Origin: a virus
Length of the DNA stretch: 36,474 nt
Reading direction: 5' to 3' (one strand)
IMG/VR virus record: IMGVR_UViG_3300037310_000190
Span: 1-36,474 of that record
In this document: piece after piece, positions 1 through 19,264 of the stretch
How the letters are laid out: each line of letters opens with the position of its first letter
Numbering within the stretch: position 1 is the stretch's first letter
Translations under genes and position numbers: made by a program
Notes under the pieces: generated by a model
Seen by the model: the letters and a program-made list of their open reading frames with translations, nothing else
Told to the model about the DNA's origin: nothing
The model's database searches: none

Positions 1-127
1 AGGGATGGCATGTCGTCGGACCAGACGTGATCACTGGAGATCGCGGATGGGGAGTCAGCGATGACGACGGCTGCTATCGAGGCACTCCTCGCGTGGACGG
101 CTGGGCGATCGAGGAGTTTGATCGCAT
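1..127. repeat. Terminal overlap copy 1: identical to 36348-36474. Indicates contig circularisation; unique genome length 36347 bp.
   Basis: Base-by-base comparison of both ends shows 127/127 identity. The overlap falls inside an open reading frame. Confidence 0.95.
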
Positions 128-2668: not shown

Positions 2669-3412
2669 GTGTACCGACAGAACCAGTGGGATTGCGGGAC
2701 CGCGTGTTCATTGCACGGCGCCGCGCATCTGATCGCGACTGGTCATCCTGCCGTCGAAGGGCCAACCTCCGACGACTACAGAGATTTGCCAGATCACGTA
2801 CGCGATGGCGTGCTGTCTGTGCTGTATTCGCCAGGTGGTACGCCCGATTTACTCAGGCGCGTGCTCGATAGACGTATTCGTATTGGCGCGGATGTCGAGC
2901 TGCGCAACGGGGCCAGAATTATTGATGGGGCTGTCATCGGCTCGCGAACATGGATCGGGCCGAGGGTATGTATCGAAGCGGGAGTATGGATTGAAGATGA
3001 ATCGAAGATTGGCGAAGGAGTGCAGATCGGCGAGGCAGCACGTATACGATTGCGCGTACAGCTCACTGCAAGAGTCAATGTTGGAGACAAGGCATTGATC
3101 GGCGACGACGCTTTCGTCGGCGAAGGCGCGCAAATTGGCCAGTGCGCTGTGATTGGCGATGGGGCAGAGATCGGCGCCAGATCAATGATCGGCGTGGGAT
3201 CAATGATCGGCAATGGCGCAGTGATCGGCTACGGATCTGCGATTGGCAATGTGGTATTGATCCGCGCGCGGGCAGTGATCGGCAGGATGGCAAAGGTTGG
3301 CTCGCTGGCAGTGATCGGCAGTGGCGCATTGATCGGCGAGGGAGCAGTGATCGGCGATGGATCGCAGATCGGCGCGGGGGCGATTGTCGGCAAGCGAGAA
3401 AGGGTACGATAG
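2669..3412 (+). CDS. Hexapeptide-repeat (left-handed beta-helix) protein.
   Basis: It carries more than 20 consecutive [LIV]-G-x4 hexapeptides, for example IGDDAFVGEGAQIGQCAVIGDGAEIGARSMIGVGSMIGNGAVIG. There is no in-frame ATG near the 5' end, so the start (GTG 2669 or later) is uncertain. Confidence 0.75.
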   Translation: MYRQNQWDCGTACSLHGAAHLIATGHPAVEGPTSDDYRDLPDHVRDGVLSVLYSPGGTPDLLRRVLDRRIRIGADVELRNGARIIDGAVIGSRTWIGPRVCIEAGVWIEDESKIGEGVQIGEAARIRLRVQLTARVNVGDKALIGDDAFVGEGAQIGQCAVIGDGAEIGARSMIGVGSMIGNGAVIGYGSAIGNVVLIRARAVIGRMAKVGSLAVIGSGALIGEGAVIGDGSQIGAGAIVGKRERVR

Positions 3413-5349: not shown

Positions 5350-7160
5350 GAATGAATTTGCTCTGGGAAGACGATATCGAGCTATCGGAAGAAAAGATAG
5401 CTGAGGTAGCAGCGCAGCAGATAGTGATTCGCGACTACCAGCAAGAAGCGGTCGCGAGCGTATTTGATGAGTGGTCCCGGGTGCGATCTACCCTGCTTTG
5501 CTTGCCCACGGGGACGGGCAAAAGTGTATGCTTTTCCGAAATTATGAAGCAATGGAATGGCGAAAGGATGATGCTGATTGCGCACCGAAAAGAGCTAATC
5601 TACCAGGCCGTCGGACATGCTACGCGAGCCGGTCTATCGTGCGGGATCGAGATGGCGCATCGCTACGCCAAGCCGACCGATCGCGTGGTTGTGTCATCGA
5701 TTCAGACGCTGATTTCTAGGTATCGATGCCGAGCCTGTCGCGGTGATGATTGCGAAGTCTGCGGCGGCAGCGGTAAGGTGAAGCGATTCACTCGATTTAA
5801 TCGTGACGAATTTGGCCTCGTCGTCATCGACGAAGGTCATCACGCTACCGCCAAATCCTATCGATCTGTTCTCGCTTGGTTTGATCGGTGTAAGCATCTT
5901 TTGGTCACGGCGACCCCAAAACGAACGGATAAGGTCGGGCTGCATAATGTATGCGACTCGACAGCGTATTCCATGACGCTACGTCAGGCGATTGATCTTG
6001 GTTGGCTGGTCCCTGTCCGGCAAAGATATGTCACCGTGAAAGGACTTGACCTAGAGTCTGTGAGCATCGTGGGAGGTGACCTAGACGATGGCGAACGTGA
6101 GCGGGCGTATCTAGGAGATAGCGACGAACGCGAGGATAGCCTGTTGCATGGTGTCGCGAAACCGTTCCTGGCTGAACTGAAATCAGAGCAAGGTATCATC
6201 TTTGCGTCTGGACAAGAGCACGCGAAAAAGCTCACAGCGGCACTGAATTCTTATCCAGGAGTCTATGCGGCGTGCGTGCTCGACGACACTCTACCAGCAG
6301 ATCGAGAGCGAATTGTAGACGAGTTTCGGCGCGGAACAATTCGCATACTAGTTAATTGCATGGTATTTGCTGAGGGTTTCGATGCGCCGGCAACAAGCGT
6401 GATAGGTAATTGCCGACCGACCAAAAGTCAGACGATTTTGGCACAATTCATCGGTCGCGGTACAAGGCCTCTGCCGGGTGTGGTCGATGGTCCACTGACG
6501 CCCGAAGAACGCAAGCAGGCTATCGCAAATAGCGCGAAGCCACGCTGCCTAGTGCTCGATTTTGTCGGGGCAACGGGTCGGCTGAGGCTGGCCACAACTG
6601 TGGATTTACTTGCGGGCGACGATGTAGATCCGATCGATTTAGAGGAGGCTGTGAGGGTCTCGCGAGAAGAAGGGGATGTAGATCCTGTGGAAGCGCTCGA
6701 GCGCGCGAAAGCTGCGAGAAAAGAGAGAGAGCGCGCGAAAGAAGCAGAGAAATTGCTTGTCACAAAGCGGCGAGCAGCATCTATTGAGTACAGCGCGGAC
6801 GAGGTGGATGACACGGAATTTGAATCATATCATCAAACAATCAGGCGTGATTCAATTACGCGCGGCCAACTAAATCTACTCGTGCGACGCCTTGGCTATA
6901 ATGCGTCGAAGATCAAGCACTTGTCAAAAAAAGCAGCCAGCCGCGAGATCACTAAGGCGCTAGCGATCGCGCGTGGCAAGGCAAAAAAATCATATCAGGA
7001 TAGGTTTCAGACCGCGCAGACGATGGGCGATCTGCATTGCATCGGCGGGCAGATTAAGCGCGCGATCGAGTACGGAGATGTGGTAATGAAGGATGCCGGG
7101 TTGCAGCAACAACTGCGAGAGTCGTTTCGTAAACGCGCGAAAGAATTGAGGGGCTCATGA
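5322..7160 (+). CDS. Superfamily-2 DEAD/DEAH-type helicase with an inserted zinc knuckle.
   Basis: Walker A is LPTGTGKS, motif II VVIDEGHH, motif III TATP and motif VI QFIGRGTR. The insert is CRACRGDDCEVCGGSG. An alternative start is the ATG at 5352, 3 nt after the upstream stop. Confidence 0.9.
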   Translation: MDSKIKGEVRMNLLWEDDIELSEEKIAEVAAQQIVIRDYQQEAVASVFDEWSRVRSTLLCLPTGTGKSVCFSEIMKQWNGERMMLIAHRKELIYQAVGHATRAGLSCGIEMAHRYAKPTDRVVVSSIQTLISRYRCRACRGDDCEVCGGSGKVKRFTRFNRDEFGLVVIDEGHHATAKSYRSVLAWFDRCKHLLVTATPKRTDKVGLHNVCDSTAYSMTLRQAIDLGWLVPVRQRYVTVKGLDLESVSIVGGDLDDGERERAYLGDSDEREDSLLHGVAKPFLAELKSEQGIIFASGQEHAKKLTAALNSYPGVYAACVLDDTLPADRERIVDEFRRGTIRILVNCMVFAEGFDAPATSVIGNCRPTKSQTILAQFIGRGTRPLPGVVDGPLTPEERKQAIANSAKPRCLVLDFVGATGRLRLATTVDLLAGDDVDPIDLEEAVRVSREEGDVDPVEALERAKAARKERERAKEAEKLLVTKRRAASIEYSADEVDDTEFESYHQTIRRDSITRGQLNLLVRRLGYNASKIKHLSKKAASREITKALAIARGKAKKSYQDRFQTAQTMGDLHCIGGQIKRAIEYGDVVMKDAGLQQQLRESFRKRAKELRGS

Positions 7161-7615
7161 GTGTATATGTAAGATGGTTAATTCGAAAAGATCTGCCCAA
7201 TGTGATGGAGATCGAGAACGAGAGCTTTCGGTCACCGCTAGATCGAGAGGACCTTATGCAAGTACTGAAAGGCCGAACGGTGATTGGTATGGTTGCGGCG
7301 GATGAGGAAGAAAACGTCGTTGGATTTATGATCTATGAGCTGAGAACGAGGGGAATATATCTCATAGATGTTGCCGTAGCTAAGGCACATCGACGGCGCG
7401 GCGTGGGTAGAGCGATGATGGACAAGCTCATTGCAAAACTTGACGCGCGAAGGCCGAGACTTTGCGTATCCGTTGACGAATACAGTCTGGATGCGCAGTT
7501 GTTTTTCCGGTCGATGGGCTTTCGGTTTAAGAAAATTTTGCATGGATTTTATGGTGAGTCTGATGCGTATTTGATGGAGGTGGACAGTGAGCGACAGGCG
7601 AATCAAGCTGTTTGA
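7157..7615 (+). CDS. GNAT family N-acetyltransferase (RimI-like), copy 1.
   Basis: Acetyl-CoA motif IDVAVAKAHRRRGVGRAMM. ATGA overlap with the helicase stop. It shares the AQLFFRSMGF motif with the second GNAT at 28861. Confidence 0.85.
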   Translation: MSVYVRWLIRKDLPNVMEIENESFRSPLDREDLMQVLKGRTVIGMVAADEEENVVGFMIYELRTRGIYLIDVAVAKAHRRRGVGRAMMDKLIAKLDARRPRLCVSVDEYSLDAQLFFRSMGFRFKKILHGFYGESDAYLMEVDSERQANQAV

Positions 7616-8042
7616 AACGAGGTTTCGCGCAATGAGTATTCGCGCTGTGTTTAACTGTCGCACGGGCCTAGCTCCTCTGTTTCAGCGACTAGTCAGGCTA
7701 AGCGAGTCGGACGACGAGGGAATCTGTACGTGTTTCACCTGCGGATATCGGAATAATTATGGCGTATTCCACGGCGGGCATTACGTCCCAAGAACCAATC
7801 TTGCCACGATTTTGATGCGAGAAAATTGCCACGCGCAATGTGTACGATGCAATCACTTTCTCGCCGGGAATCTGGGTGCGTATCGAACAGAAATGATCAA
7901 GGCGTATGGCTGGGATCGCGTGAACGAGATCGAGAATCTGCGCCTTCCGCCTAATCACGTGTGGGATTTGCACGAGTTGGCCGCCACCAAGGTCAGGCTT
8001 CTTGAAGATATTAAGATCCAGGAAAAACGGCTAGGGATATGA
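7587..8042 (+). CDS. ninG: NinG/Rap-like recombination protein.
   Basis: CFTCG...GGHYVPR...ENCHAQCVRCNHFLAGNLGAYRTEMIKAYGWDRVNEIE aligns with lambda NinG CISCG...AGHYRT...[37 protein letters not shown]. The start is uncertain (GTG 7587 or ATG 7632). Confidence 0.85.
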   Translation: MSDRRIKLFETRFRAMSIRAVFNCRTGLAPLFQRLVRLSESDDEGICTCFTCGYRNNYGVFHGGHYVPRTNLATILMRENCHAQCVRCNHFLAGNLGAYRTEMIKAYGWDRVNEIENLRLPPNHVWDLHELAATKVRLLEDIKIQEKRLGI

Positions 8043-8066
8043 ATTAGAACACAAAGGGGAGGTCTG

Positions 8067-8249
8067 ATGATTGCTGAATTACCGCTGGTGCTGGAAATTA
8101 TTCGATCGTGTCCGGATGCGGAGATGGACGCATTAGGGAAGCGAATTGCAAGATCGATCGCGCGCGACAAGTGGGATGAGGAATCAATCAATCGTGCGAG
8201 GATAGCGTGGAAGCTGAGACGGGAGAGGTCGAATGACTCGCAAACGTGA
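8067..8249 (+). CDS. Hypothetical small protein (60 aa).
   Basis: GGGGAGG RBS upstream of the ATG. It lies in the early operon. Confidence 0.6.
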   Translation: MIAELPLVLEIIRSCPDAEMDALGKRIARSIARDKWDEESINRARIAWKLRRERSNDSQT

Positions 8250-8577
8250 GCTATCCTTACTGCTGGCAGGCGCGCTACTAGTGAAATCGACGCGCGCTGA
8301 GGTTCTTGCAAAATTGTGCGATGGTCTGGATGATGATCTTGCGCCTATCGTGTCCGCCCTCCGCGCTGGGAGCAGCGAGCCCTATCGAGAATGGCTGAAA
8401 AAGCGTGGCGTACATGTGGGTCAGGATGCGATTTCAGCGATCGCCGAGGCACTTCTTAGCGAGAAGCTCATGGAGAAATTAAACGCACAAATTGGTGAGC
8501 TGAAATTCGCCGGTCTGGTCGAGGACAGGGACACGTTCCGCCAGCGGCTTGAATCGATTTTGGAATCTATAAAATGA
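8233..8577 (+). CDS. Hypothetical protein (114 aa).
   Basis: The ORF overlaps the upstream gene by 17 nt and the product looks helical. No motif recognised. Confidence 0.6.
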   Translation: MTRKRELSLLLAGALLVKSTRAEVLAKLCDGLDDDLAPIVSALRAGSSEPYREWLKKRGVHVGQDAISAIAEALLSEKLMEKLNAQIGELKFAGLVEDRDTFRQRLESILESIK

Positions 8578-8586
8578 CAATTCGTC

Positions 8587-8616
8587 TTGATTACGCCATG
8601 GTATTGACGATATAAT
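8587..8616 (+). promoter_or_regulatory. Putative sigma70-type promoter giving a leaderless mRNA for the 8623 gene.
   Basis: TTGATT (8587-8592), an 18-nt spacer, then TATAAT (8611-8616). The ATG at 8623 lies only 6 nt after the -10 box and has no SD. Confidence 0.5.
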
Positions 8617-8622
8617 GGCAAC

Positions 8623-8841
8623 ATGAAAAACGTCTCTACATCGTTCGTAGCTGAGTATTTCCACGTCTCGCGCAGAACGATTGCGCGCGCGGCAAAGCGC
8701 GCCAAACTGGAAAGAATGGTAGGAAAATCCTTGGTTTTCCTATGGCCTCAGGATCGTGAGGCGTTGAGCAAATTCGTGATCGGTCGCGTGGGTAACCCTA
8801 ACTTTGGAGCGAAGAAGACACAGCACATCAACAGTCACTAG
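8623..8841 (+). CDS. Small HTH DNA-binding protein (72 aa), possible regulator.
   Basis: FVAEYFHVSRRTIARAAKRAKL is a typical HTH segment. It is the last plus-strand gene before the convergent intergenic region. Confidence 0.65.
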   Translation: MKNVSTSFVAEYFHVSRRTIARAAKRAKLERMVGKSLVFLWPQDREALSKFVIGRVGNPNFGAKKTQHINSH

Positions 8842-9113
8842 ACGCATAGCGTCACGACGAAAGGTTACACGATTCCATTCGAATCGTTGCAACGGTTGCA
8901 GTACCTACACCTTGAGCGGGGACAAAGCTGCAACGCCAAATCTGACAGCCAGCGGGAAAGCCGTACGCCAGCGGATCGATCGTAGATCCGAGAAATGTCA
9001 GTGCCGAGGAGCGATTCGATTCGCGATGCAGGGCTTTGTACTGCGGTGGGGGTGGGGGGGGCTGCGCGCAGACGTTCACGATTCCCTGATGCGGTGACGA
9101 TTTGGTTAGCTAG

Positions 9114-9842
9114 TCACGAGTCCCTTTTAGTTGCTTGTATTATCTCTTGGTACGTGCTGACGAAAGAGGATGTCAAATCGTTGATGTCCGCAGCCTCAAA
9201 CCCCTTGGCCTTTTCTTCAATCAGTTGCTCAAATACATTCTTGTAAATTAGATAGACTGCTGCTTGGAAATTACTGTTTTCCAAGAGTAGCGAAAGTGGC
9301 AATATCATATTTTTCTTCGCGTGTTCTTCGCGTTGATCTTCTGGCAGTGAAGCCGTCAGTCGAGACATGTCGCGAGCGTTCAGGAATGACACGACGATAG
9401 TAGTGCATTGTGAAAACGCTTGGTCAGTCGATGTGTCGATCCAAACAGTCATCTTGTTTAGCTCAGGGTTTAGCCAAAACAATGTTCCATCGATTCTCTG
9501 AACACGGCAATGAAGTGTGATGCCACGTTCCTCTGGCTTGAGCAATGTCTCTATGATAGCGCTAATCGCAGCTGCGCCAGCCTGTTTGGTAATCTCTTCG
9601 TCGCCGGTCAGTGAGTTCCAACACTCATCGGAGTTGCGCCAAATGTGCGATTGACTACCAATGGGATGATAGCCCGCGATGAAAACGACCTCTGCCTCAA
9701 TGTGTGGTTCTTTGTGCACGATTACAGGTACGTTCACATAGCGATTATTGGAGTCGAGAAATGGTCGCGATCCTTGCTCGGTATACTTTTCAAGTGCAAT
9801 GTTGATATGAGCCAATACGGCCTTTGCGGTAATTGTGTTCAT
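9114..9842 (-). CDS. Hypothetical protein (242 aa), second gene of the minus-strand cassette.
   Basis: Long ORF in a lower-GC island. ATGA start/stop overlap with the upstream minus-strand gene. No motif recognised. Confidence 0.8.
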   Translation of the reverse strand: MNTITAKAVLAHINIALEKYTEQGSRPFLDSNNRYVNVPVIVHKEPHIEAEVVFIAGYHPIGSQSHIWRNSDECWNSLTGDEEITKQAGAAAISAIIETLLKPEERGITLHCRVQRIDGTLFWLNPELNKMTVWIDTSTDQAFSQCTTIVVSFLNARDMSRLTASLPEDQREEHAKKNMILPLSLLLENSNFQAAVYLIYKNVFEQLIEEKAKGFEAADINDLTSSFVSTYQEIIQATKRDS

Positions 9843-10612
9843 GTGAGGAATCCAAATGTTCGAAGGGTGTCGTAGGCTTTTTGTATCATGTTTTGCTCGG
9901 TAGTAGTATATGTTGCTCCAGCCGTTGCAGCACCGCCAAGTTGCCTGAGCGCGGGTGCCGCGCCAAGGACGCTAAACTTGCCACCATCCGTTGACGTTTC
10001 TGATCGTGTGATTTCTTGCCATAGGCTGAGACCAGAATTGTACACTTCCTCAACAATCGTACCGGCAGCGATGTTCCGATAGCGTACATTGTTTTCAATC
10101 TCAATATCGTTAAACGCTGTTAGCTTTCTTGTGGATTGATGAATTTTCAACAGTGCCTGACCGGAATTGACGTTGCCGATCGCAAACGTATCTCCGTTTG
10201 CATCTCCTAGTCCAAACCAGCTCATTCCTGGGCGACGAATTTGAAACGCGTAAAAGCTTGTCCCGGTAACCTGGGTGTGACCGGAATCGGGCTCTATGTT
10301 GTATCGTCCATAGATGTCAGTGTAGGCGCATGTCTTCAGGCCATTGGCGTTGTACACGTTGAGATAACCAGCGTCGTTTATTTCTACCAGGCTCGAAGCG
10401 ATAAGCTTGCCTGTAGAATCTGAAAATCGAGCGATACGATTGATAATCGATTCGTTTGGTCCACGGACGTATGGCGAAAGATCCGGGCTAGATGCTGTGG
10501 CCGTGGAAAGTTGTCCCGTCTCGTCTACAGTCAGAAACTCTTCTGACGGTGGATAGGTTGCCAGGCCACGAAGTTTTCGTCCGCCGATGATTTTGGATGC
10601 ATTGCTTATCAT
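9839..10612 (-). CDS. Hypothetical protein (257 aa), G/N/T/S-rich and beta-type, first gene of the minus-strand cassette.
   Basis: Long ORF. TATAAT on the minus strand lies 6 nt upstream of its ATG. No catalytic motif recognised. Confidence 0.8.
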   Translation of the reverse strand: MISNASKIIGGRKLRGLATYPPSEEFLTVDETGQLSTATASSPDLSPYVRGPNESIINRIARFSDSTGKLIASSLVEINDAGYLNVYNANGLKTCAYTDIYGRYNIEPDSGHTQVTGTSFYAFQIRRPGMSWFGLGDANGDTFAIGNVNSGQALLKIHQSTRKLTAFNDIEIENNVRYRNIAAGTIVEEVYNSGLSLWQEITRSETSTDGGKFSVLGAAPALRQLGGAATAGATYTTTEQNMIQKAYDTLRTFGFLT

Positions 10613-10618
10613 GTGAGT

Positions 10619-10624
10619 ATTATA
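10619..10624 (-). promoter_or_regulatory. Putative -10 box (TATAAT on the minus strand) for a leaderless minus-strand cassette.
   Basis: The plus-strand ATTATA at 10619-10624 reads TATAAT on the minus strand, 6 nt from the ATG at 10612-10610. There is no clear -35. Confidence 0.4.
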
Positions 10625-10630
10625 GCGTTC

Positions 10631-10651
10631 GAGAATAAAATCGTGTATAAT
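10631..10651 (+). promoter_or_regulatory. Extended -10 promoter element, copy 1 (GAGAATAAAATCGTGTATAAT), upstream of dam.
   Basis: It contains TGnTATAAT (10644-10651). 19/21 positions are identical to 11494-11514. Confidence 0.55.
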
Positions 10652-10678
10652 TGCCTTGTCAATAAAGGAAGCTTATGC

Positions 10679-11473
10679 ATGGCATATAATTGCATCGTTC
10701 GCTGGTTTGGCGGCAAGGCGCGTTTGGCCAAGAAAATCATCCCGATAATCCCTGTATCTCGTTGTTACGTTGAGCCGTTTGGTGGCGCGGCGTCGATACT
10801 GTGCAGCATGGAGCGCCGCGAAGTTGAGGTCTACAACGATTTGGATGACCGCTTGGTGAATTTGTTCCGCGTGCTCCAGGTACCACGGCAGGCTGCGGCG
10901 CTAAAGCGTCGATTGCAAGCTACGCCTTACGCTCGCAGTGAGTTTGCGCGAGCGCTGCAAGAGATTAAGTCGAGTAGCCCTGTTGGAAAAGCGTGGGCCA
11001 TGTTTGTTCTCTACAATTTGGGCTTCAGCGGTAAGGCCGACACCATGGGAGATTGGAGAATTGCAAAGTCAAACAACGTAGCTCGAACATTTGCCAATCG
11101 AGTTGATCGGCTGGATTGGTATGTCGAGCGATTTCGCCATGTGACCATAGACAATCGACCCGCGCTAAAGGTGCTGGATGTATATGACAGTCAAGACACG
11201 GTTTTTTACTGCGATCCTCCGTACATTCCCGAAACACGAAAGAGCGGTGGGTATCGATGCGAGATGGATACAGCGGACCACGAAGATCTAATCAAGAAGC
11301 TGCTAACGGTAAAAGGGCGCGTCGTCCTTTCTGGATATGATAGTCCTCGTTATAGACCACTGGTCAACGCTGGCTGGAAAACTCGTAGATTCGCGACTAG
11401 ATGTATTGCGATGAACAATAAAGTTACTGCGGACAGAAATCGGAAGGAATGCCTGTGGATCTCTCCAGATTGA
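10679..11473 (+). CDS. dam: Dam-family (D12 class) N6-adenine DNA methyltransferase.
   Basis: RWFGGKARL (the KWAGGK-type N-terminal motif), EPFGGAAS (FxGxG) and FYCDPPY (DPPY) are present. AAGGAAG RBS lies before the ATG at 10679. The ORF track starts the frame too early, at 10613. Confidence 0.9.
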   Translation: MAYNCIVRWFGGKARLAKKIIPIIPVSRCYVEPFGGAASILCSMERREVEVYNDLDDRLVNLFRVLQVPRQAAALKRRLQATPYARSEFARALQEIKSSSPVGKAWAMFVLYNLGFSGKADTMGDWRIAKSNNVARTFANRVDRLDWYVERFRHVTIDNRPALKVLDVYDSQDTVFYCDPPYIPETRKSGGYRCEMDTADHEDLIKKLLTVKGRVVLSGYDSPRYRPLVNAGWKTRRFATRCIAMNNKVTADRNRKECLWISPD

Positions 11474-11493
11474 AATCCACAGAATTTGTGTGC

Positions 11494-11514
11494 GAGAAAT
11501 AAATCGTGTATAAT
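11494..11514 (+). promoter_or_regulatory. Extended -10 promoter element, copy 2 (GAGAAATAAATCGTGTATAAT), at the head of the late operon.
   Basis: TGTATAAT at 11507-11514. The ATG at 11523 follows 8 nt later with no SD. This element duplicates 10631-10651. Confidence 0.55.
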
Positions 11515-11522
11515 CTCATCGT

Positions 11523-12374
11523 ATGATACTTGTTTTACATCGTCCCGATCTGTCTGGAGAAGCGTTATCGCTCAAGGTCTGGACACTGAGCGGAAGTCTT
11601 GTCAATGCGAGCGGCGATGCGTTTACTGAAACTCCGGCAAACAGCGGACGATTTGAAGCCAACGTCGCGGAGCCGCTACTTGATATGGAATACCGATGCG
11701 ACATAGAGATAGATAGCGAAGTCGAGGTGTTCGGGCCATTGTTCCCTATGGTCAGCAATGTGATAGGGTACTCGCCGCTTCCGCCTGCCGCGCTAGCTGG
11801 TCCGTACGTCCTCACAATCGCTGTGACAGATATGTCGAATCAAGCGATTGAAGGCGCGTTTGTGCGCGTGTATAGAGCTGGCGAAACGGAAACGAAGACA
11901 ACCAATAGCGGCGGGATCGTGTCGTACACTGTAGTTCCGGCGACGTGGGGTGTAAGTGTCAAGGCGAATGGATATGCGGGAAAAACGGTGATCGTGGCGG
12001 TCTCTGGGGATATGTCAACCACGATCGAGCTAGAGCCTCTGCCTGTCACTCCACCTCCTAGCGCAGATGCAACTGTCGTCACAGTCCAGTTGGTCAGTGG
12101 ATCGCTCGAGTCTGTTGCTGGCGCGAAAGTGCGAGTGCGACCAAAGCGCATAGCCGTCGTTGGTGAAGCCATATCCCTGTCTACGGTGCCAGGCGAAGGA
12201 GTGACAGACGCAAGCGGTCGATGTGACGTGATTGTTCCGAGGCTATCCTCGATTGATAACACGTCTACAATTTGGATAGTAGATGCGCAACTAGGCGGGA
12301 GATTTATTCTTGATCCCACAGAGTTTGAGCTAACTAATGACGCTACTACATACCTTGCGATATTGTTGACATGA
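11523..12374 (+). CDS. Structural-type protein with a carboxypeptidase-regulatory-like beta-sandwich domain.
   Basis: LTIAVTDMSNQAIEGAFVRVYRAGETETKTTNSGGIVSYTVVPATWGVSVKANGYAGKTV fits the CarboxypepD_reg-like pattern. It is the first gene of the late operon. Confidence 0.65.
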   Translation: MILVLHRPDLSGEALSLKVWTLSGSLVNASGDAFTETPANSGRFEANVAEPLLDMEYRCDIEIDSEVEVFGPLFPMVSNVIGYSPLPPAALAGPYVLTIAVTDMSNQAIEGAFVRVYRAGETETKTTNSGGIVSYTVVPATWGVSVKANGYAGKTVIVAVSGDMSTTIELEPLPVTPPPSADATVVTVQLVSGSLESVAGAKVRVRPKRIAVVGEAISLSTVPGEGVTDASGRCDVIVPRLSSIDNTSTIWIVDAQLGGRFILDPTEFELTNDATTYLAILLT

Positions 12375-12646
12375 TTTCACAAATCAATGACATGCGCGAA
12401 ATGGCTCTACAAGCGATGGCGTCAGGCGACTATGTCCGTGCGCTGGACTACGCCGAACGTGCGCAATTTCTCATTGCTACGATGCCGTCAAGAAGCAGTT
12501 TAGATGATGAGGAAATAGAATGGAATGCCGAAGCGGTGGATAAAGTTGTGGTCATGCTAAAGAAAAAAGTAGCAGAGTTGCGCGCGGACTCGGCGGAAAG
12601 TGCGGACGGTATACTATTCTCCTTGCCTGGACGGTTTGTCAGATGA
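12371..12646 (+). CDS. gpW-like head-tail joining protein.
   Basis: It lies immediately upstream of the portal gene. The C-terminus KKKVAELRAD...GILFSLPGRFV resembles lambda gpW LKKYIAELEVQ...GPAGFYV. ATGA overlaps occur at both ends. Confidence 0.5.
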   Translation: MISQINDMREMALQAMASGDYVRALDYAERAQFLIATMPSRSSLDDEEIEWNAEAVDKVVVMLKKKVAELRADSAESADGILFSLPGRFVR

Positions 12647-14076
12647 GCGAGTTGTGCTTTTCTCAAATGATAGGCGTTGATGATATCGTCGAGCGAGCTT
12701 GGGACGATCGCTCGCGATGGCACGTCCGCGCGTTTGAGAGCGCCGAGTACGATCCTCTCACCGCGAGCCGCTGGTCGCGCGTCGTTGGTGAGACCACGAT
12801 CAACGAAGAAATCGAGGCAAGCCAAAGTATTTCCAGGGCCAAAGCTGTTTATGAAGGAAGAAATTCTTCTCTAGTGCGCGGGGTTATTCACTCGCATTCT
12901 ATCGCGGTCGTTGGTGCCGAGGGTCCGACGTTAGATTTGCAGTGTACGATTGATTCGGACGATCATGAGGAATGGTGTATAGCTGCGGAAAAAGTGTGGA
13001 ATGATTTTAGCGGATGCGGGTCAGATATTTATGGAATTTCGAGATGCGAAGCATCAGGTAAATTGCATTTTGCCGATCTGCTCCAGCAATGGATAGGGTT
13101 GCTGTGGACGTGTGGCGAAGCACTAGGGGTAAAGGTCGAGGATCCTGACCGCCCTGCGGATGACCCGATCGGATGGCGGATAATGAATATCAATCCGTCT
13201 CGTTTGTACAGCCCGCCGAATTGGTCGAGAGTAGGAAGACTTGGCGTGCGCACAAATGTGATCGGTCGTCCTACGGGCTATTGGATTGGCGATGGTAATA
13301 GTGGCGGGCGCGAGATTTCGTCCGATAGAATTTATCATTTATTTCTGGAGACGGAGCCCGAGCAGCTGAGGGGAGTGCCGCTTATCAACACGTGTCTGAA
13401 CACGGCGGCGGACATCAGGGATTACGATGCAGAAGTTCTCGCGGCAGCTAGGGCCGCAGCGGCGCTTAGCATGTTCGCGTATACGACCGATCCCGAAGCC
13501 GAATACAAAGAGCCGCCAAAAGACGATCGATCGGTAAGTTATCGACGGGGACAGCTGAACTATCTACGCCCGAAGTGGCAATTGGCAAGCAATCCAGCTA
13601 CTCAGCCTAGCGCGAGCTATCGAGACCATCGTCATGAGAGGATGCCAGAACTCGGTAGACCGGTGTCAATGCCAGGGCTGATCGTGCGGCAGGACGCCAG
13701 CGGGCACAATTATAGCTCAGCGCGATTTGACTACGCGCAGTATTGCTTGGCCATCGAGGTATTCCAGCGGTGGCTAACGCGGCGATGCGTAGAGCGGCTG
13801 CGAAGGGAAGTGACGGCAACGGCGATTCTGTCGGGTGTATTGCCGCGCCAGCCGCCTGGCGTGATTGCCATTTGGACGTGGCCTCAGCCGCAGCCGATCG
13901 ACGAACTAAAGAACGCTGAGGCGGAAGCGATCCAGTTAGACACGGGGACGATTAGCTTTTCGGAAGCGTGCAAGCGTCGAGGGACGACGGCTGAGCGAGT
14001 GGCGCTACAGCGTCGGCGTGACTCTCGATTGCTGAAAAAACATGGTCTAAGGAGTGTAGAACGTGAAGATGAATAG
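12643..14076 (+). CDS. Portal protein, lambda gpB family.
   Basis: It is 477 aa. The C-terminal segment WTWPQPQPIDELKNAEAEAIQLDTGTISFSEACKRRG parallels lambda gpB WIGSGRMAIDGLKEVQEAVMLIEAGLSTYEKECAKRG. The position between the gpW-like gene and the protease fits. Confidence 0.8.
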   Translation: MSELCFSQMIGVDDIVERAWDDRSRWHVRAFESAEYDPLTASRWSRVVGETTINEEIEASQSISRAKAVYEGRNSSLVRGVIHSHSIAVVGAEGPTLDLQCTIDSDDHEEWCIAAEKVWNDFSGCGSDIYGISRCEASGKLHFADLLQQWIGLLWTCGEALGVKVEDPDRPADDPIGWRIMNINPSRLYSPPNWSRVGRLGVRTNVIGRPTGYWIGDGNSGGREISSDRIYHLFLETEPEQLRGVPLINTCLNTAADIRDYDAEVLAAARAAAALSMFAYTTDPEAEYKEPPKDDRSVSYRRGQLNYLRPKWQLASNPATQPSASYRDHRHERMPELGRPVSMPGLIVRQDASGHNYSSARFDYAQYCLAIEVFQRWLTRRCVERLRREVTATAILSGVLPRQPPGVIAIWTWPQPQPIDELKNAEAEAIQLDTGTISFSEACKRRGTTAERVALQRRRDSRLLKKHGLRSVEREDE

Positions 14077-16315
14077 ACGAAAAAGTGATTTAAGCTACAC
14101 GCGGAAAATGTCATTTTCCCCGACCTCGCTGAATGAAGCGGAAGGCACGATTGAGGCTGTAATATGTACAGAATCACCCGTAAGGAAAAGATTTGGATTT
14201 GACGAAATTCTGCTTGTCAGCGGGGCAAGCACGGGAGACCAAGTTCCGTTGCTGTTTGACCACATTCGAAATAGTTCATCAGTCATTGGATCTGCCCGGG
14301 GATTTCACATCGAAAATGATAAGCTAATTTCGCAACTCTGGTTTGACACCGAGTTGGGAAAAGAGGCGGAAAGCGTTTGGCAGCGCGTAAAAAGAAGCCA
14401 TATTCGCAAGTTTTCCATAGGATATACATACTCAGAATCTGACTATGTCACGATTAGCCCACATTCGACCAGGACAATTGTCGGCAAATCATTCACGGCG
14501 TCCGATCGCCCGTTGCGTGTTGTTTTTAAATGGGTCTTGGACGAAGTATCTACGGTGGTGATCCCCGCTGACCACAATGCTCAAGCTCGAAAAAAAGAGG
14601 CTAGACAACGTCAAGAAAAAATGGATAATAAAAGGACGAGGAGACAATCAATGGCAAGAAAATCTGAAACGGTTGCGCAAGAGAGCAATGATCAAGCCAA
14701 GACGTCCGAGCACGGATTGAGGTCACAGGAGCAAGTCGCGGATCATAGATCACATCAAGTCGCGGATCATAGATCACATCAAGTCGCGGATCATAGATCA
14801 CATCAAGTCGCGGATCACAGTAATGATCAAGTCGCGGATCATAGATCACAAGATGTAGAACAAGACGCGCGTAACGGAGCGGCGCGGGAGCGGCGGCGAC
14901 AGCAAGCGATACGCGAGCTAGCCGACCTAGCGGGGCCATGCGTTGCAGAATCTATGATCCGCCAAGCGTGCGATGAGGGCTGGGAAGAATCGCGGGCGCG
15001 GCATGTATTTGCGGGATTAGCTGCAGGATCTCGACGAGAGTCGCCCGGACCCCAAGCGCCGGCGGGACATACTCGCAACGGTTCGCAGCATGTCACGCAA
15101 CGCGCAGTAATGATCGCCCTCGGAATTCGTCACGGTGTGCGATTCGATTCGCCAGTTTTTTGCGAGAGCGGCGTCAGGCAGTCTCTGACGTATGGTAATC
15201 GCGGGGCATGGATTCCGCCTCTTGCTGCCGACCTATCGTCGCGCGGGATTCCCAGCGATGACGCGCTGGCGCGAGAATTCGAGCGCGGCTCGGCGATGGC
15301 ATCTCTGAGCAATCGAGAGCTGACGCGGATGTATCTTGAGGCGGGCGGGCACGAGGCACCATACCATCCCGATGAGCTTGTCCGGTCCGCGCTTTCGACG
15401 AGTGCGGGATTTGAAACGATGCTGTCGGGCGTTACGCACATGCTTGTTCTGCAAGGCTACGGAGACAACGCAACGGATACGCTCGGATGGGTGCATCAGG
15501 AGGAGGTCGGCGACTTCCGGCAGAATGATCGATACCAGTCTGGCGGATTTAGTAATCTGTCCAAGCTCGGAAAAAATGGTCATACGGCCAAGATTTTGAA
15601 CCCCGAAGATCCAATCAAAGAGAGTTACGCTATCGAGCGTTTCGCGGGTCAAGTGATTTTCGACGAGCGATTTATCTATGACAGCGCATCGTTTGGCATG
15701 GCCGAGCAGAGCGCCGAGGAAATCGGTCGACGAGCGCGAGAGATTCCGATTGGGCTTGTCTATTCGCAGTTGCTTTTGAACGGCAACATGTCAGACGGTG
15801 GCGCGTTCTTCAATGCGACGCGCGGCAATTTGTTGTCTCTCGCGTTGACGGGCGCTAATTTGGATTTACTAGCGCAGGCTCTTAGCTCGATGAAGGGGGC
15901 TAATGGAATGCCGACGAATGTTGCCGGAGCGACGTTGCTAACAAGCGGTTCGCTAGGGTATGAGGCCACGAAAATGATCTCTAGCGCCGAGCTGCGAAAT
16001 AGCAGTGGCGAGAGCGGAACGACAAATCCGAATTACGGTCGCTTCGACGTGGTCGTCGAGAGTCGACTAAGCAACGGAGTCGTGAATCCTGACAGCGAGA
16101 CTCTAGTTGCTGCGCGACCGAATCGATGGTACCTGGTTGGTCCGTCGTCGATGCGAGCGTGTGAACTGGGTTGGTTAGTCGGAACCGGTCGGCAACCACG
16201 AGTTCGGCGGACGCCACTTGCCCAAGGCGCTTGGGGTGTTCATCTCGATATAGTAATCGACTGCGGCGCGAAGATGATCTCGCCCCAAGCGATGGCCGCC
16301 AGTGATCAGCCATAA
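14063..16315 (+). CDS. Fusion protein: HK97/S78-type prohead protease, a repeat-containing linker, then a probable major capsid domain.
   Basis: The N-terminus has VPLLFDHIRNSSSVIG and KFSIGYTY, which are S78-like His and Ser contexts. The middle is charged and repetitive. The roughly 400-aa C-terminal part resembles Mu gpT-like capsid proteins from memory. No separate MCP gene is evident elsewhere. Confidence 0.7.
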   Translation: MKMNRRKSDLSYTRKMSFSPTSLNEAEGTIEAVICTESPVRKRFGFDEILLVSGASTGDQVPLLFDHIRNSSSVIGSARGFHIENDKLISQLWFDTELGKEAESVWQRVKRSHIRKFSIGYTYSESDYVTISPHSTRTIVGKSFTASDRPLRVVFKWVLDEVSTVVIPADHNAQARKKEARQRQEKMDNKRTRRQSMARKSETVAQESNDQAKTSEHGLRSQEQVADHRSHQVADHRSHQVADHRSHQVADHSNDQVADHRSQDVEQDARNGAARERRRQQAIRELADLAGPCVAESMIRQACDEGWEESRARHVFAGLAAGSRRESPGPQAPAGHTRNGSQHVTQRAVMIALGIRHGVRFDSPVFCESGVRQSLTYGNRGAWIPPLAADLSSRGIPSDDALAREFERGSAMASLSNRELTRMYLEAGGHEAPYHPDELVRSALSTSAGFETMLSGVTHMLVLQGYGDNATDTLGWVHQEEVGDFRQNDRYQSGGFSNLSKLGKNGHTAKILNPEDPIKESYAIERFAGQVIFDERFIYDSASFGMAEQSAEEIGRRAREIPIGLVYSQLLLNGNMSDGGAFFNATRGNLLSLALTGANLDLLAQALSSMKGANGMPTNVAGATLLTSGSLGYEATKMISSAELRNSSGESGTTNPNYGRFDVVVESRLSNGVVNPDSETLVAARPNRWYLVGPSSMRACELGWLVGTGRQPRVRRTPLAQGAWGVHLDIVIDCGAKMISPQAMAASDQP
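14732..14851 (+). repeat. In-frame 24-bp tandem repeat x5 (CAAGTCGCGGATCATAGATCACAT; peptide QVADHRSH).
   Basis: Three perfect and two variant units were read directly from the sequence, inside the protease-capsid linker. Confidence 0.95.
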
Positions 16316-16578
16316 TGAAGCGGTATAAGATAATCGCACAGGCAACCAGCATCATCGCGGGCGACTGCGTGTCAGCTGGTGATTGCGTGGCGGTAGTCGA
16401 GTCGAATTATCCCGTGCATGACGTGTTGTATTTTTTGCGTTACGCGCGGGTAGTCGAGCAAGAAGACCAGATGCCTAGCGGCAGGTCTGAAGACCAGATG
16501 CCTAGCGGCAGGTCTGAAGACCAGATGCCTAGCGGGAACAGGCCAGAACAAACAGAAAAACCTAAGAGAAGGAGATAA
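16315..16578 (+). CDS. Small repeat-containing protein (87 aa), function unknown.
   Basis: TAATG overlap with the upstream gene. Contains AGDCVS/AGDCVA and EDQMPSGRS repeats. The coding status is moderate. Confidence 0.55.
   Translation: MKRYKIIAQATSIIAGDCVSAGDCVAVVESNYPVHDVLYFLRYARVVEQEDQMPSGRSEDQMPSGRSEDQMPSGNRPEQTEKPKRRR
16462..16535 (+). repeat. In-frame 27-bp tandem repeat, about 2.7 copies (GAAGACCAGATGCCTAGCGGCAGGTCT).
   Basis: Two perfect units plus the 20 identical leading bases of a third, read directly. Confidence 0.95.
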
Positions 16579-16579
16579 A

Positions 16580-16936
16580 ATGGCAAGATCAGCGGCAGCG
16601 GTATTTGTTGGATCGCCGGGGCGATTGGACTACACGGCAGCGGGAACCGAAAAGCCAGGTGACCTTCTGCTACATGCTTCGGGCGTCGTAGGTCTATTCG
16701 ACGGAATGCATACGCCCAAAGCGGGAGAATTGATTTCGATCTGTATTGCCAGCGACATTATCGTCGAGGCTAACGCAGATCCGGCAGCCGTGTTTGCCGC
16801 AGGCGGAACCGCAGACTGGGACGCGTCAGCGCGTCGCATCGAAGCAGCTGGCACCTTTGGAGGTGTCGGAAAAATTCGCATCGCCGCAGCCAAAGCGGCG
16901 AATGAAACAACCGTGAAAATATTGTTGAATCGATGA
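16580..16936 (+). CDS. DUF2190-like head decoration/cement protein.
   Basis: It is 118 aa with a strong AAGGAG RBS. The pattern (PGDLLL..GVVGL...AGELISI...GTADWDAS...GKIRIAA) resembles the DUF2190 family. It lies next to the capsid gene. Confidence 0.55.
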   Translation: MARSAAAVFVGSPGRLDYTAAGTEKPGDLLLHASGVVGLFDGMHTPKAGELISICIASDIIVEANADPAAVFAAGGTADWDASARRIEAAGTFGGVGKIRIAAAKAANETTVKILLNR

Positions 16937-17283
16937 CATACAGCGAATTAGTGAGCTGCATGGCGGAAGAGCATGCAGAATTGTTTGGGCAAGACGTTCA
17001 GATCATATCCAAGGACGGCACGTCTGTTTTAAAAAATGCGATCGTTCACGCTGAGAAGACCCGCCGAAGTCCGAGCGAGCAAGGACTCCGGCTAGTAACG
17101 ACTAGGCGGGTCTTTCTTTCACATGCCGAGTGTCCGAAAAAGCCATTGACAAATTCTATTGTGGTGGTGCAAGGCATGCGCTACTCAATAGAGGCAATTA
17201 GCGCAACGGCGTCAAGATATTGCTTGCACCTAGTGCGCACAGATGTAGCCGAGCTAGCGGGTCGAAAGATACGTCGTGATTAG
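16933..17283 (+). CDS. Probable head-tail connector/adaptor protein.
   Basis: ATGA overlap. Size and position between the head and tail genes fit. No motif recognised. Confidence 0.6.
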   Translation: MTYSELVSCMAEEHAELFGQDVQIISKDGTSVLKNAIVHAEKTRRSPSEQGLRLVTTRRVFLSHAECPKKPLTNSIVVVQGMRYSIEAISATASRYCLHLVRTDVAELAGRKIRRD

Positions 17284-18273: not shown

Positions 18274-18310
18274 CCAAAAATAAGTACAATTTCCGTAGGA
18301 GGATGTATTT

Positions 18311-19252: not shown

Positions 19253-19264
19253 GAGATAAGAGGA

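What the first reader, a model, noticed from the sequence alone, without database searches (positions are those of the whole stretch)
9114..10612. Opposite-strand, leaderless, translationally coupled two-gene cassette of unknown function in a low-GC island
These are the only two minus-strand genes (257 aa and 242 aa, joined by an ATGA overlap). They lie between the early and late units in the lowest-GC part of the genome I sampled (42%). A minus-strand TATAAT lies 6 nt from the first ATG. I recognise no motif in either protein. The first is G/N/T/S-rich and beta-like. The second is a soluble alpha/beta-looking protein.

The layout parallels the lambda immunity region, where the leaderless leftward cI-rexA-rexB operon sits against the flow of the other genes. 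Such counter-oriented morons frequently encode superinfection-exclusion or defence functions. This is my main candidate for an uncharacterised two-component system, although a fibre-plus-chaperone pair is also possible.
Basis: inference. Interest (0 to 1): 0.65.

Follow-up and report, generated by a model that had tools for sequence, protein, structure and literature searches.

The report
Counter-oriented phage fibre-like gene pair
Two real, translationally coupled phage genes lie on the opposite strand; the first ends in a short "cap" otherwise seen only at the very end of tail-fibre proteins of uncultivated phages and the second is a near-orphan, so the pair is more likely an accessory fibre with its helper than a defence system, though no experiment has tested this.

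Summary
ORFs 9839-10612 (257 aa, P0001) and 9114-9842 (242 aa, P0004) lie on the minus strand. They overlap by ATGA, and a TATAAT sits 6 nt before the first ATG. The window is a complete, novel ~36.3 kb phage genome.

Both genes are real. A diverged relative (L001/L011) keeps the same pair, the same 4-nt overlap and the same neighbours. Non-synonymous differences are about 0.19-0.20 per site while synonymous sites are saturated.

P0001 is not motif-free. Residues 198-257 match (HHalign 99.3%) a cap found at the extreme C-terminus of about 45 long fibre-like proteins. Many of these hit tail-fibre PHROGs and sit in structural operons. The first ~200 residues of P0001 are orphan.

P0004 has one distant homologue among 1.84 billion representatives. 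That homologue sits directly upstream of a virion-structural gene block.

Neither protein hits PADLOC, Pfam or PHROGs. Neither has a membrane segment. No integrase or repressor was detected.

Best reading (~0.45): an independently transcribed accessory fibre-like protein plus its cognate assembly helper or cap. The exclusion/defence reading is not excluded (~0.2).

Structure prediction failed for both proteins. Interest is modest.

The parts
9839..10612 (-). Gene 1 (P0001, 257 aa). Soluble, acidic, rich in G/T/A/S and predicted to be beta-rich. Residues 1-197 are orphan; residues 198-257 are the fibre cap.
   Evidence: ORF. Purifying selection against L011. Codon usage. No transmembrane segment. 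AF2 predicts mostly strands plus one confident C-terminal helix at 237-252.
9842..10021 (-). C-terminal cap of P0001 (residues 198-257, ...LGAAPALRQLGGAATAGATYTTTEQNMIQKAYDTLRTFGFLT). It is homologous to the extreme C-terminus of long fibre-like phage proteins.
   Evidence: Matches of 50-79% identity. HHalign gives 99.3% probability, E 6e-21, confined to residues 198-257. The cap ends 0-2 residues before the stop in 26 of 26 IMG/VR loci and 6 of 6 genome loci.
9114..9842 (-). Gene 2 (P0004, 242 aa). Soluble, acidic, alpha/beta and a near-orphan.
   Evidence: ORF. The only relatives are P0005/P0022 (70% identity, same pair) and P0021 (29% over 170 aa). Purifying selection. No hits in Pfam, PHROGs, PADLOC or PDB.
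9839..9842 (-). ATGA stop/start overlap, indicating translational coupling.
   Evidence: Seen. Conserved as GTGA in L011.
10619..10624 (-). Consensus -10 hexamer TATAAT, 6 nt upstream of the P0001 ATG. This is a leaderless-type arrangement with no Shine-Dalgarno sequence and no good -35.
10630..10651 (+). 22-nt promoter-like box CGAGAATAAAATCGTGTATAAT in front of the Dam gene (ATG at 10679, preceded by AAGGAAG). It occupies the spacer and -35 region of the minus-strand promoter. A 20/22 identical copy lies at 11493-11514 in front of the late-unit gene at 11523.
8858..9074 (.). Conserved non-coding element directly downstream of the pair, between the two convergent units. It is 81% identical to L011, with cores of 90.5% (8996-9070) and 84.5% (8886-8988), against 67-68% in the genes. 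It contains a C8-A-C5 run on the pair's strand. Its role is unknown; a transcript end or rut-like site, or a DNA site, are possibilities.
   Evidence: The indels are 1, 1 and 16 nt, so it is not coding. No Rfam or tRNA hit. Folding z-scores are -0.5 and -0.3.

Best explanation
The cassette encodes an accessory virion fibre-like (adhesin or receptor-binding type) protein and its cognate helper. P0001 is a short, beta-rich protein. Its last ~60 residues are a conserved cap that, in every other protein where it occurs, closes the C-terminal end of a long phage fibre. By analogy with fibres that trimerise from the C-terminal end, I infer that the cap nucleates or closes trimerisation. P0004 is translated by coupling from the same mRNA in a fixed ratio. 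I infer that it acts on P0001 as an intermolecular chaperone, or as a transient or retained tip cap, like the lineage-specific proteins encoded directly downstream of many fibre genes. The unit is transcribed on its own from a -10-only promoter whose start would fall at or next to the ATG, giving a leaderless mRNA. That promoter lies back-to-back with, and physically overlaps, the promoter box that drives Dam and recurs before the late operon. What is shown: gene reality, coupling, conservation of the pair, cap homology, and the structural context of the relatives. What is inferred: virion incorporation, trimerisation, the chaperone role, and the transcription start.
For: 1. Cap homology. P0001 residues 198-257 match the C-termini of 16 proteins in the 5.8-billion-protein collection (17 including P0001 itself), 26 IMG/VR loci and 6 genome loci. 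HHalign gives 99.3%. The cap is always at the extreme C-terminus.

2. The cap-bearers are fibres. They carry collagen G-X-Y runs, HTHT motifs and QTADLxQWQ repeats. Their PHROG hits are tail fiber, short tail fiber, tail collar fiber, minor tail, tail spike and virion structural protein. Their positions are after Dit/Tal-size genes (L002), after sheath/tube (L007) and between portal and capsid (L006).

3. Gene arrangement. Cap-bearing genes are usually followed closely by a small, variable, family-specific gene: a 107-aa family in 5 distinct contexts, a 93-aa family in 3, and others unique. P0001 to P0004 has the same layout with a 4-nt overlap that is conserved in L011. Chaperones encoded directly downstream of fibre genes are established for T4, Mu and R-pyocins. 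Phage V22 gp27 is a precedent for a chaperone with no homology to known ones (PMC7289586).

4. Context of the P0004 family. Its only distant homologue, P0021, lies co-oriented and immediately upstream of three genes that are colinear with Salmonella phage Arash gp233, gp234 and gp236. Those are virion proteins by mass spectrometry and lie near the PAAR spike gp239.

5. Stability. The pair is kept, under purifying selection, at the same position in a relative whose synonymous sites are saturated. Its codon usage is typical of the phage. It is therefore a stable lineage component, not a recent passenger.

6. Cellular location. Both proteins are soluble and lack membrane segments. There are no defence-family hits.
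Against: - Homology of P0001 to fibres is limited to ~60 residues. With the cap removed nothing is detectable, and the family's shaft repeat is absent.
- P0001 has no recognisable N-terminal tail- or baseplate-docking domain and no similarity to other window proteins.
- The cassette is outside the tail module and is counter-oriented, whereas nearly all cap-bearing relatives are co-oriented with upstream structural genes.
- Its promoter overlaps a box shared with the late-unit promoter, which could mean expression that is anti-correlated with late genes.
- P0004 matches no known tail-fibre assembly family. It is never found next to another cap-bearing gene. In L010 no cap-bearing gene is present on the contig.
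- Both AF2 models are unusable (pLDDT 34 and 45), and fold searches gave nothing significant.
Confidence: 0.45

Rival explanations
1. A non-structural accessory module. The pair is expressed against the flow of the other genes from its own leaderless promoter. It would act inside the infected or carrier cell in superinfection exclusion, defence or counter-defence. One concrete version: P0001 uses the shared fibre cap to co-assemble with, and so poison, the fibres of competing phages that carry the same cap.
For: - The unit is counter-oriented and autonomous, and sits at the early/late junction beside an HTH gene and a conserved non-coding element.
- GC is 5-7 points lower than the genome.
- The promoter physically overlaps the Dam/late-type promoter box, so expression may be mutually exclusive with it.
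- The pair lies outside the tail module, unlike almost all cap-bearing relatives.
- The P0001 body and P0004 are orphans, as is common for accessory genes.
Against: - There are no PADLOC hits.
- There is no membrane component, unlike RexB, Imm, SieA or Cor-type exclusion proteins.
- No integrase, repressor or partition gene was detected, so lysogeny is unsupported.
- The low-GC zone is not specific to the pair, and the pair's codon usage is typical of the phage.
- The pair is conserved in place in the one relative known.
- The only distant homologue of P0004 sits beside structural genes.
Confidence: 0.2
2. The two genes share an mRNA but have unrelated jobs. P0001 is a fibre-like virion or cell-surface-binding protein that folds on its own through its cap. 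P0004 has a separate function, for example an infection-cycle or morphogenesis factor that does not act on P0001.
For: - The P0004 family occurs without any cap-bearing partner in L010.
- Cap-bearing genes elsewhere have many different or no close downstream partners, so the cap does not require a particular helper.
- Some fibres fold without their downstream chaperone (phage A5; PMC10579305).
Against: - The 4-nt overlap is conserved even though the start codon changed from ATG to GTG.
- The pair is co-conserved at about 70% identity for both proteins, with near-identical pN, which fits a functional couple.
- With only two lineages known, this evidence is weak either way.
Confidence: 0.2
3. 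The ORFs are chance antisense reading frames and are not genes.
For: GC skew on the plus strand stays mostly positive across the region.
Against: - There are no competing plus-strand ORFs longer than 83 aa.
- The annotated frames give the best coding score of the six frames.
- pN is far below pS against L011 for both genes.
- Homologues exist in independent samples.
- AT skew reverses over the pair.
Confidence: 0.01

Closest known systems
Tail fibre plus downstream intermolecular chaperone or cap pairs (T4 gp37/gp38 and gp57A, Mu S/U, P2 H/G, lambda Stf/Tfa, R-pyocin fibre/chaperone, Alteromonas phage V22 gp26/gp27 and A5 gp8/gp9)
   Same: A fibre-type protein is followed directly by a ~100-260 aa lineage-specific partner gene, and the two are tightly coupled. 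The partner can lack homology to any known chaperone, as V22 gp27 does (PMC7289586). Folding of such fibres starts at the C-terminal end, which is where P0001 carries its conserved cap.
   Different: P0004 matches no Tfa, gp38 or other chaperone family. P0001 is short and only its last 60 residues resemble fibres. The cassette is a separate, counter-oriented, apparently leaderless unit at the early/late junction rather than part of the tail operon.
Unnamed family of fibre-like proteins of uncultivated phages and prophages (Planctomycetota, Chloroflexota, Armatimonadota MAGs) that end in ...F(L/F)GAxPxxQQTGGAATAGxTYxxTEQxMLQKAYDALRTFGLL
   Same: The same cap sits at the extreme C-terminus.
   Different: The relatives are 300-1700 aa long. 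They have collagen-like runs and QTADLxQWQ repeats, sit in structural operons and are often followed by a conserved 107-aa or 93-aa protein. P0001 has none of these features.
C-terminal folding and trimerisation elements of fibres (T4 fibritin foldon; Peptidase_S74 intramolecular chaperone domains of endosialidase, T5 pb1 and S16 fibres)
   Same: A short C-terminal element is conserved across otherwise unrelated fibres, which is the pattern expected of an assembly element rather than a receptor-binding tip.
   Different: There is no sequence match to S74 or to the foldon. There is no evidence of autoproteolysis. The function of the cap is inferred only.
Lambda immunity-region operon cI-rexA-rexB (leaderless cI mRNA from PRM) and phage morons in general
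   Same: The unit is counter-oriented with its own promoter. The -10 element is placed so that the mRNA would start at the ATG. It sits at a regulatory junction back-to-back with another promoter. GC is lower than the genome average.
   Different: There is no repressor-like first gene and no membrane protein like RexB. There is no homology to known defence proteins and no sign of lysogeny genes. No intrinsic terminator was found in the interval scanned, 8400-11000. The pair is conserved in the only relative.

Membership tests
Cap-bearing phage fibre family (unnamed; defined here) | The conserved ~50-60 aa cap lies at the extreme C-terminus. | tested here: met
   HHalign gives 99.3% probability, E 6e-21, for residues 198-257. 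Identity to relatives is 50-79%. The stop codon follows directly.
Cap-bearing phage fibre family (unnamed; defined here) | A long fibrous shaft is present (collagen-like G-X-Y runs, QTADLxQWQ repeats or PHROG tail-fibre domains). | tested here: not met
   With the cap removed there is no homology (probability 0.1%). The repeat HMM scores 0.8 bits, while shuffled sequences reach 9.8. P0001 has no PHROG hit.
Cap-bearing phage fibre family (unnamed; defined here) | The gene is embedded in, and co-oriented with, a virion-structural operon. | tested here: not met
   The pair is the only minus-strand unit, lying between the HTH and Dam genes. The relatives are co-oriented with their upstream genes in nearly all loci.
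Tail fibre plus intermolecular chaperone pair | The partner gene lies directly downstream of the fibre gene, is co-transcribed, and the pair is co-conserved. | tested here: met
   The ATGA overlap is kept as GTGA in L011. Both proteins are about 67-70% identical to their L011 counterparts, with similar pN.
Tail fibre plus intermolecular chaperone pair | The partner belongs to a recognised tail-fibre assembly or chaperone family. | tested here: not met
   P0004 has no Pfam or PHROG hit and no PDB sequence hit. It has no similarity to any partner downstream of another cap-bearing gene.
Tail fibre plus intermolecular chaperone pair | The partner is needed for fibre trimerisation or binds the fibre tip, and the fibre is part of the virion. 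| not testable with these tools
   This needs co-expression with size-exclusion chromatography, virion proteomics, or a confident multimer model. The monomer models have pLDDT 34 and 45.
Known anti-phage defence or exclusion systems (PADLOC set; Rex-like) | At least one component is homologous to a catalogued defence protein. | tested here: not met
   PADLOC returned no families for either protein at E <= 1.
Known anti-phage defence or exclusion systems (PADLOC set; Rex-like) | A membrane or envelope component is present (RexB, Imm, SieA, Cor or Llp type), and the system is carried by a temperate phage. | tested here: not met
   The maximum 19-residue hydropathy is 0.9-1.0, so there is no transmembrane segment or signal peptide. 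No integrase or repressor was detected by Pfam or PHROGs among 40 ORFs.
Moron (autonomous accessory insert) | It has its own promoter and terminator, atypical composition, and patchy presence among related phages. | tested here: inconclusive
   A consensus -10 is present, but there is no -35 and no intrinsic terminator. GC is 46-49% against 53%, but codon usage is typical of the phage and the low-GC zone is wider than the pair. The only relative known carries the pair at the same place.
Leaderless transcription unit | The -10 element lies about 6-8 nt upstream of the start codon, there is no Shine-Dalgarno sequence, and the transcript starts at the ATG. | tested here: inconclusive
   The geometry is met, and it recurs at two other unit-leading genes (8611/8623 and 11509/11523). 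However, only 12 of 40 genes in this genome have a Shine-Dalgarno-like motif anyway. In L011 the HTH homologue has a Shine-Dalgarno sequence instead. The 5' end of the pair is missing from L001/L011. No transcript data are available.

The most novel reading that the evidence does not exclude
The cassette is not a virion part but a new kind of two-protein inter-phage competition or exclusion module built on a fibre cap. In this reading P0001, helped or regulated by P0004, is made from a leaderless promoter that fires only when the overlapping Dam/late-type promoter is silent. P0001 then uses the widely shared C-terminal cap to co-assemble with, and inactivate, the fibres of superinfecting phages that carry the same cap, or to mask the shared receptor.
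Probability: 0.1. Interest if true: 0.7.

Novelty: new member of a known kind. Interest (0 to 1): 0.3.

Why it matters
If the best reading is right, three things follow.

1. The finding adds a minimal member (257 aa) to a previously unnamed, fairly widespread family of phage fibres from poorly studied hosts (Planctomycetota, Chloroflexota, Armatimonadota). It also defines the family's conserved ~50-residue C-terminal cap, which Pfam and PHROGs do not capture. That could help annotate receptor-binding proteins in metagenomic phages.

2. It gives a candidate new family of fibre helper proteins (P0004 and P0021).

3. It shows a fibre-type gene uncoupled from the late operon and driven by a leaderless, back-to-back promoter. 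This is a small but testable case of how accessory fibres might be regulated separately from the rest of the virion.

If the exclusion reading were right instead, it would be a new mechanism of inter-phage competition. As it stands, this is an ordinary-looking orphan cassette with one informative homology.

Tried and rejected
**Cultured-phage searches**
- Megablast of window 8000-20000 and tblastn of both proteins, and of the relatives P0002 and P0003, against 50,697 cultured phage records found nothing.

**Family libraries**
- Pfam, PHROGs and PADLOC on both proteins gave only sub-threshold noise.

**Protein homology searches**
- The word-indexed search found only the cap relatives for P0001 and only P0005 for P0004.
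- An exhaustive HMMER search with the P0004/P0005 profile over 1.84 billion representatives gave one extra hit, P0021.

**Structure**
- AF2 gave pLDDT 34 for P0004 and 45 for P0001.
- Foldseek against BFVD and PDB gave no hit at E <= 0.001 and TM-scores below 0.25. The non-significant top hits for P0001 happen to be tail fibres, and I give that no weight.
- PDB sequence searches with P0001, the P0004 profile, the cap profile and P0007 found nothing.

**Tests of specific ideas**
- I looked in the window for the 107-aa or 93-aa partner families, or for a second cap-bearing gene. None is present.
- I looked for P0004 relatives next to any other cap-bearing gene. None was found by BLAST, HMM or HHalign.
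- I tested whether P0001 carries the family's QTADLxQWQ shaft repeat. It does not.
- I tested whether homology extends beyond the cap. It does not, despite a suggestive MAFFT column around SWFGLGD.

**Search for more relatives of this phage**
- The portal query found nothing in IMG/VR.
- The Dam query found 80 loci, none syntenic.
- P0021 and the P0004 family were not found in IMG/VR or in the JGI metagenome contigs.
- The conserved-element pattern was not found in IMG/VR, metagenome or genome collections.

**Readings of the conserved intergenic element that I rejected**
- An Rfam family or tRNA-like attP reading was rejected: there are no Rfam or ARAGORN hits and folding z-scores are unremarkable.
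- A coding reading was rejected because of the 1-, 1- and 16-nt indels.
Full report
**What the window is**

The 36,474-nt window carries an exact 127-nt terminal direct repeat. It is therefore a complete circular or terminally redundant genome of about 36.35 kb. It has no nucleotide or protein-level match for the tested region among 50,697 cultured phage records.

Pfam and PHROG scans give this map:
- Recombination and replication genes on the plus strand: a hexapeptide acyltransferase at 2669, a RecE/YqaJ-like exonuclease at 3475, DUF3102 at 4657, a helicase at 5322, a GNAT at 7157, NinG at 7587 and a small HTH protein at 8623.
- The minus-strand pair.
- A D12-class Dam methyltransferase (ATG at 10679).
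- A 283-aa protein with an Ig-like domain at 11523, the portal at 12643 and a protease-capsid fusion at 14063.
- About 12 kb of unannotated late genes, then an esterase at 25353 and a trypsin/collagen-repeat protein with weak tail-fibre hits at 26362.
- An HNH endonuclease at 29289, the large terminase at 30484 and a glycosyltransferase at 33814.

No integrase, repressor or partition gene was detected.

**Check of the observation**

ORFs 9839..10612 (257 aa, P0001) and 9114..9842 (242 aa, P0004) lie on the minus strand and overlap by ATGA. A TATAAT at 10624-10619 lies 6 nt from the ATG. There is no Shine-Dalgarno sequence and no acceptable -35.

The GC figure of 42% holds only for about 9100-9500 (43-44%). 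The genes are 48.8% and 46.1% GC against 53.3% for the genome. The low-GC zone runs from about 8400 to 11600, so it also covers the HTH and Dam genes.

The annotated frames are the best of six by codon usage, with scores typical of the phage's confident genes.

**Both are real genes and a conserved couple**

One diverged relative exists, on contigs L001 and L011 from two independent samples that are identical over the 1,559 nt they share. It carries the C-terminal 141 residues of a P0001 homologue (67% identity) and then a P0004 homologue (70% identity). The overlap is again 4 nt, now GTGA. The neighbours are the same: HTH, the 114-aa protein, NinG and GNAT.

Between the two lineages the synonymous sites are saturated (pS 0.78 and 0.75), while pN is 0.193 and 0.198. 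Both ORFs are therefore under purifying selection.

**Gene 1 (P0001)**

The evidence for the cap is as follows:
- It matches, at 50-79% identity, the C-termini of 16 other proteins in the 5.8-billion-protein collection.
- It matches 26 IMG/VR loci.
- It matches 6 loci in bacterial genomes or MAGs: Chloroflexia, Armatimonadetes, Singulisphaera (twice), Gemmataceae and Anaerolinea.
- In every one of those 32 loci it ends 0-2 residues before the stop codon.

The bearers are 300-1700 aa long, with collagen-like G-X-Y runs, HTHT motifs and repeated QTADLxQWQxSxG units. Scanned against PHROGs, they hit families annotated tail fiber, short tail fiber, tail collar fiber, minor tail, tail spike and virion structural protein. 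Where context is visible they sit in structural operons:
- after Dit and Tal-sized genes (L002);
- after sheath and tube (L007);
- between portal/MuF and the major capsid protein in a Gemmataceae prophage (L006).

They are co-oriented with their upstream genes in nearly all loci.

Profile-profile comparison limits the homology of P0001 to residues 198-257 (99.3% probability, E 6e-21). With the cap removed nothing remains, and an HMM of the shaft repeat does not detect P0001. P0001 is therefore an orphan, G/T/A/S-rich, predicted beta-rich body of ~200 residues closed by a fibre cap.

AF2 is confident only for the terminal helix at 237-252.

A short element that is conserved at the far C-terminus of otherwise unrelated fibres is what one expects of an assembly or trimerisation element, because receptor-binding tips are the variable part. 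That functional reading is my inference. The cap has no Pfam entry and no solved structure.

**Gene 2 (P0004)**

P0004 has no Pfam, PHROG, PADLOC or PDB match. An exhaustive HMMER search of 1.84 billion representatives with the P0004/P0005 profile finds one further protein, P0021 (E 2e-5; 29% identity over 170 residues pairwise, E 1e-14).

The three sequences share no catalytic-looking motif. All are acidic and soluble, with no membrane segment. AF2 failed, with pLDDT 34.

P0021 lies on a 9-kb contig, L010. It is co-oriented with and directly upstream of three genes colinear with Salmonella phage Arash gp233, gp234 and gp236. Those proteins were detected in Arash particles by mass spectrometry and are encoded near its PAAR spike (PMC10585845). 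That preparation also contained many enzymes, so this evidence is moderate. L010 contains no cap-bearing gene.

**How the pair compares with other cap-bearing loci**

Cap-bearing genes are usually followed closely by a small gene, but which one varies. A conserved 107-aa family appears in five distinct contexts, a 93-aa family in three, and the rest are unique. None resembles P0004 by BLAST, HMM or HHalign, and the window has no 107-aa or 93-aa homologue.

The layout 'fibre gene followed by a tightly linked, lineage-specific partner' is that of fibre/chaperone pairs. [quoted passage not shown] Phage V22 gp27 is a functional chaperone with no homology to known ones (PMC7289586). Some such partners may act as transient caps, and some fibres fold without them (PMC10579305).

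**Transcription signals**

TATAAT-N5-9-ATG occurs three times in the genome. By count alone this is not significant (3 against 1.07 expected; 9 of 100 shuffles reach it). However, all three sites coincide with the start of a long ORF that heads a unit: 8611/8623 (HTH; this one also has TTGATT-18-TATAAT), 10624/10612 (P0001) and 11509/11523 (the first late-unit gene). This supports the leaderless reading.

There are caveats. Only 12 of 40 genes have a Shine-Dalgarno-like motif anyway. The HTH homologue in L011 has a Shine-Dalgarno sequence instead.

A 22-nt box, CGAGAAWWAAATCGTGTATAAT, occurs twice at 20/22 identity. One copy is before Dam (10630-10651) and the other is before gene 11523 (11493-11514). 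The first copy occupies the spacer and -35 region of the minus-strand promoter. The two -10 hexamers are 21 bp apart, and the inferred starts are about 46 bp apart. The two promoters can therefore hardly be occupied together. This is the main feature that speaks for regulation separate from, and possibly opposed to, the late genes. It is an inference from geometry only.

**Weighing the readings**

*For an accessory fibre plus helper:* the cap homology, the fibre nature and structural context of all cap-bearers, the coupled partner layout, the structural context of the partner's only distant homologue, stable conservation in the lineage, phage-typical codon usage, and soluble proteins.

*Against it:* the homology covers only 60 residues, no docking domain is recognisable, the cassette sits outside the tail module and is counter-oriented, the promoter geometry is unusual, and the partner belongs to no known chaperone family.

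*For exclusion or defence:* only the architecture. There are no defence homologies, no membrane component and no sign of lysogeny.

My estimates:

| Reading | Probability |
|---|---|
| Fibre plus helper | 0.45 |
| Accessory / exclusion module | 0.2 |
| Co-transcribed but functionally unrelated | 0.2 |
| Other | remainder |

**Novelty and interest**

This is a new, minimal member of a known kind (a fibre-type protein with a coupled partner). It belongs by its cap to an unnamed fibre family of phages of Planctomycetota, Chloroflexota and Armatimonadota. A specialist would not be very surprised.

The useful by-products are the definition of the cap, a candidate helper family, and the conserved non-coding element next door. 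Interest is 0.3.

Noticed in passing
window 8858-9074 (cores 8996-9070 and 8886-8988): A non-coding element between the convergent HTH gene and the pair is 81% identical to L011 (cores 90.5% and 84.5%), while the flanking genes are 67-68% identical with saturated synonymous sites. Indels of 1, 1 and 16 nt exclude coding. It contains a C8-A-C5 / G-rich run at about 9046-9062. There is no Rfam or tRNA hit, no significant fold, and no match in the phage, IMG/VR, metagenome or genome collections. Its function is unknown; a transcript end or rut site, an origin, a packaging site or a regulatory DNA site are possibilities.
   Followed up: partly
window 8611-8625 (+), 10610-10624 (-), 11509-11525 (+): There are three TATAAT-N6-8-ATG arrangements, and each sits exactly at the start of a long ORF that heads a transcription unit. 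This suggests the phage uses leaderless mRNAs for unit-leading genes. In L011 the HTH homologue has a Shine-Dalgarno sequence instead.
   Followed up: partly
window 10630-10651 and 11493-11514 (+): A 22-nt promoter-like box, CGAGAAWWAAATCGTGTATAAT, is duplicated at 20/22 identity before Dam and before the first late-unit gene. An 8-bp perfect inverted repeat (CTGTGGAT...ATCCACAG, 11453-11482) lies between the Dam stop and the second box. Dam therefore looks like a self-contained mini-unit.
   Followed up: partly
window 1-127 and 36348-36474: An exact 127-nt terminal direct repeat marks the contig as a complete circular or terminally redundant genome. The large terminase (30484) is separated from the portal (12643) by the whole early region when the genome is circularised.
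   Followed up: no
L003 3004-3324, L006 11797-12120, L007 11289-11612, L020 6159-6506, L033 5798-6115: A conserved ~107-aa protein family (63-88% identity) lies directly downstream of cap-bearing fibre genes in otherwise unrelated phages. It has only a weak hit to phrog_5084 (unknown function). It is a candidate cognate chaperone or partner of the cap.
   Followed up: partly
L006 10001-11776 (Gemmataceae MAG, JAXMAZ010000028.1): A 591-aa collagen-repeat, cap-bearing fibre and its 107-aa partner sit between the portal/MuF gene and the major capsid gene. That is an unusual place for a tail fibre, so it may be a head fibre or an inserted fibre cassette.
   Followed up: no
window 2669-3412, 7157-7615, 25353-26132, 28861-29292, 33814-34761: The phage carries an unusual load of acyl- and glycosyl-modifying enzymes: a hexapeptide acyltransferase, two GNAT acetyltransferases, an esterase/lipase and a family-2 glycosyltransferase, plus DUF4326 at 34755. 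This may reflect modification of the host surface or of phage DNA.
   Followed up: no
window 14063-16315 and 26362-27828: One 750-aa ORF fuses a prohead protease-like region to the major capsid protein. Separately, a 488-aa late protein combines a trypsin-like peptidase domain with a collagen-like stretch and weak tail-fibre PHROG hits.
   Followed up: no
L010 3860-9033: On a metagenomic contig (SRR11558592), three consecutive genes are colinear with Salmonella phage Arash gp233, gp234 and gp236 at 23-26% identity. This links the 'orphan' phage Arash to uncultivated relatives.
   Followed up: partly
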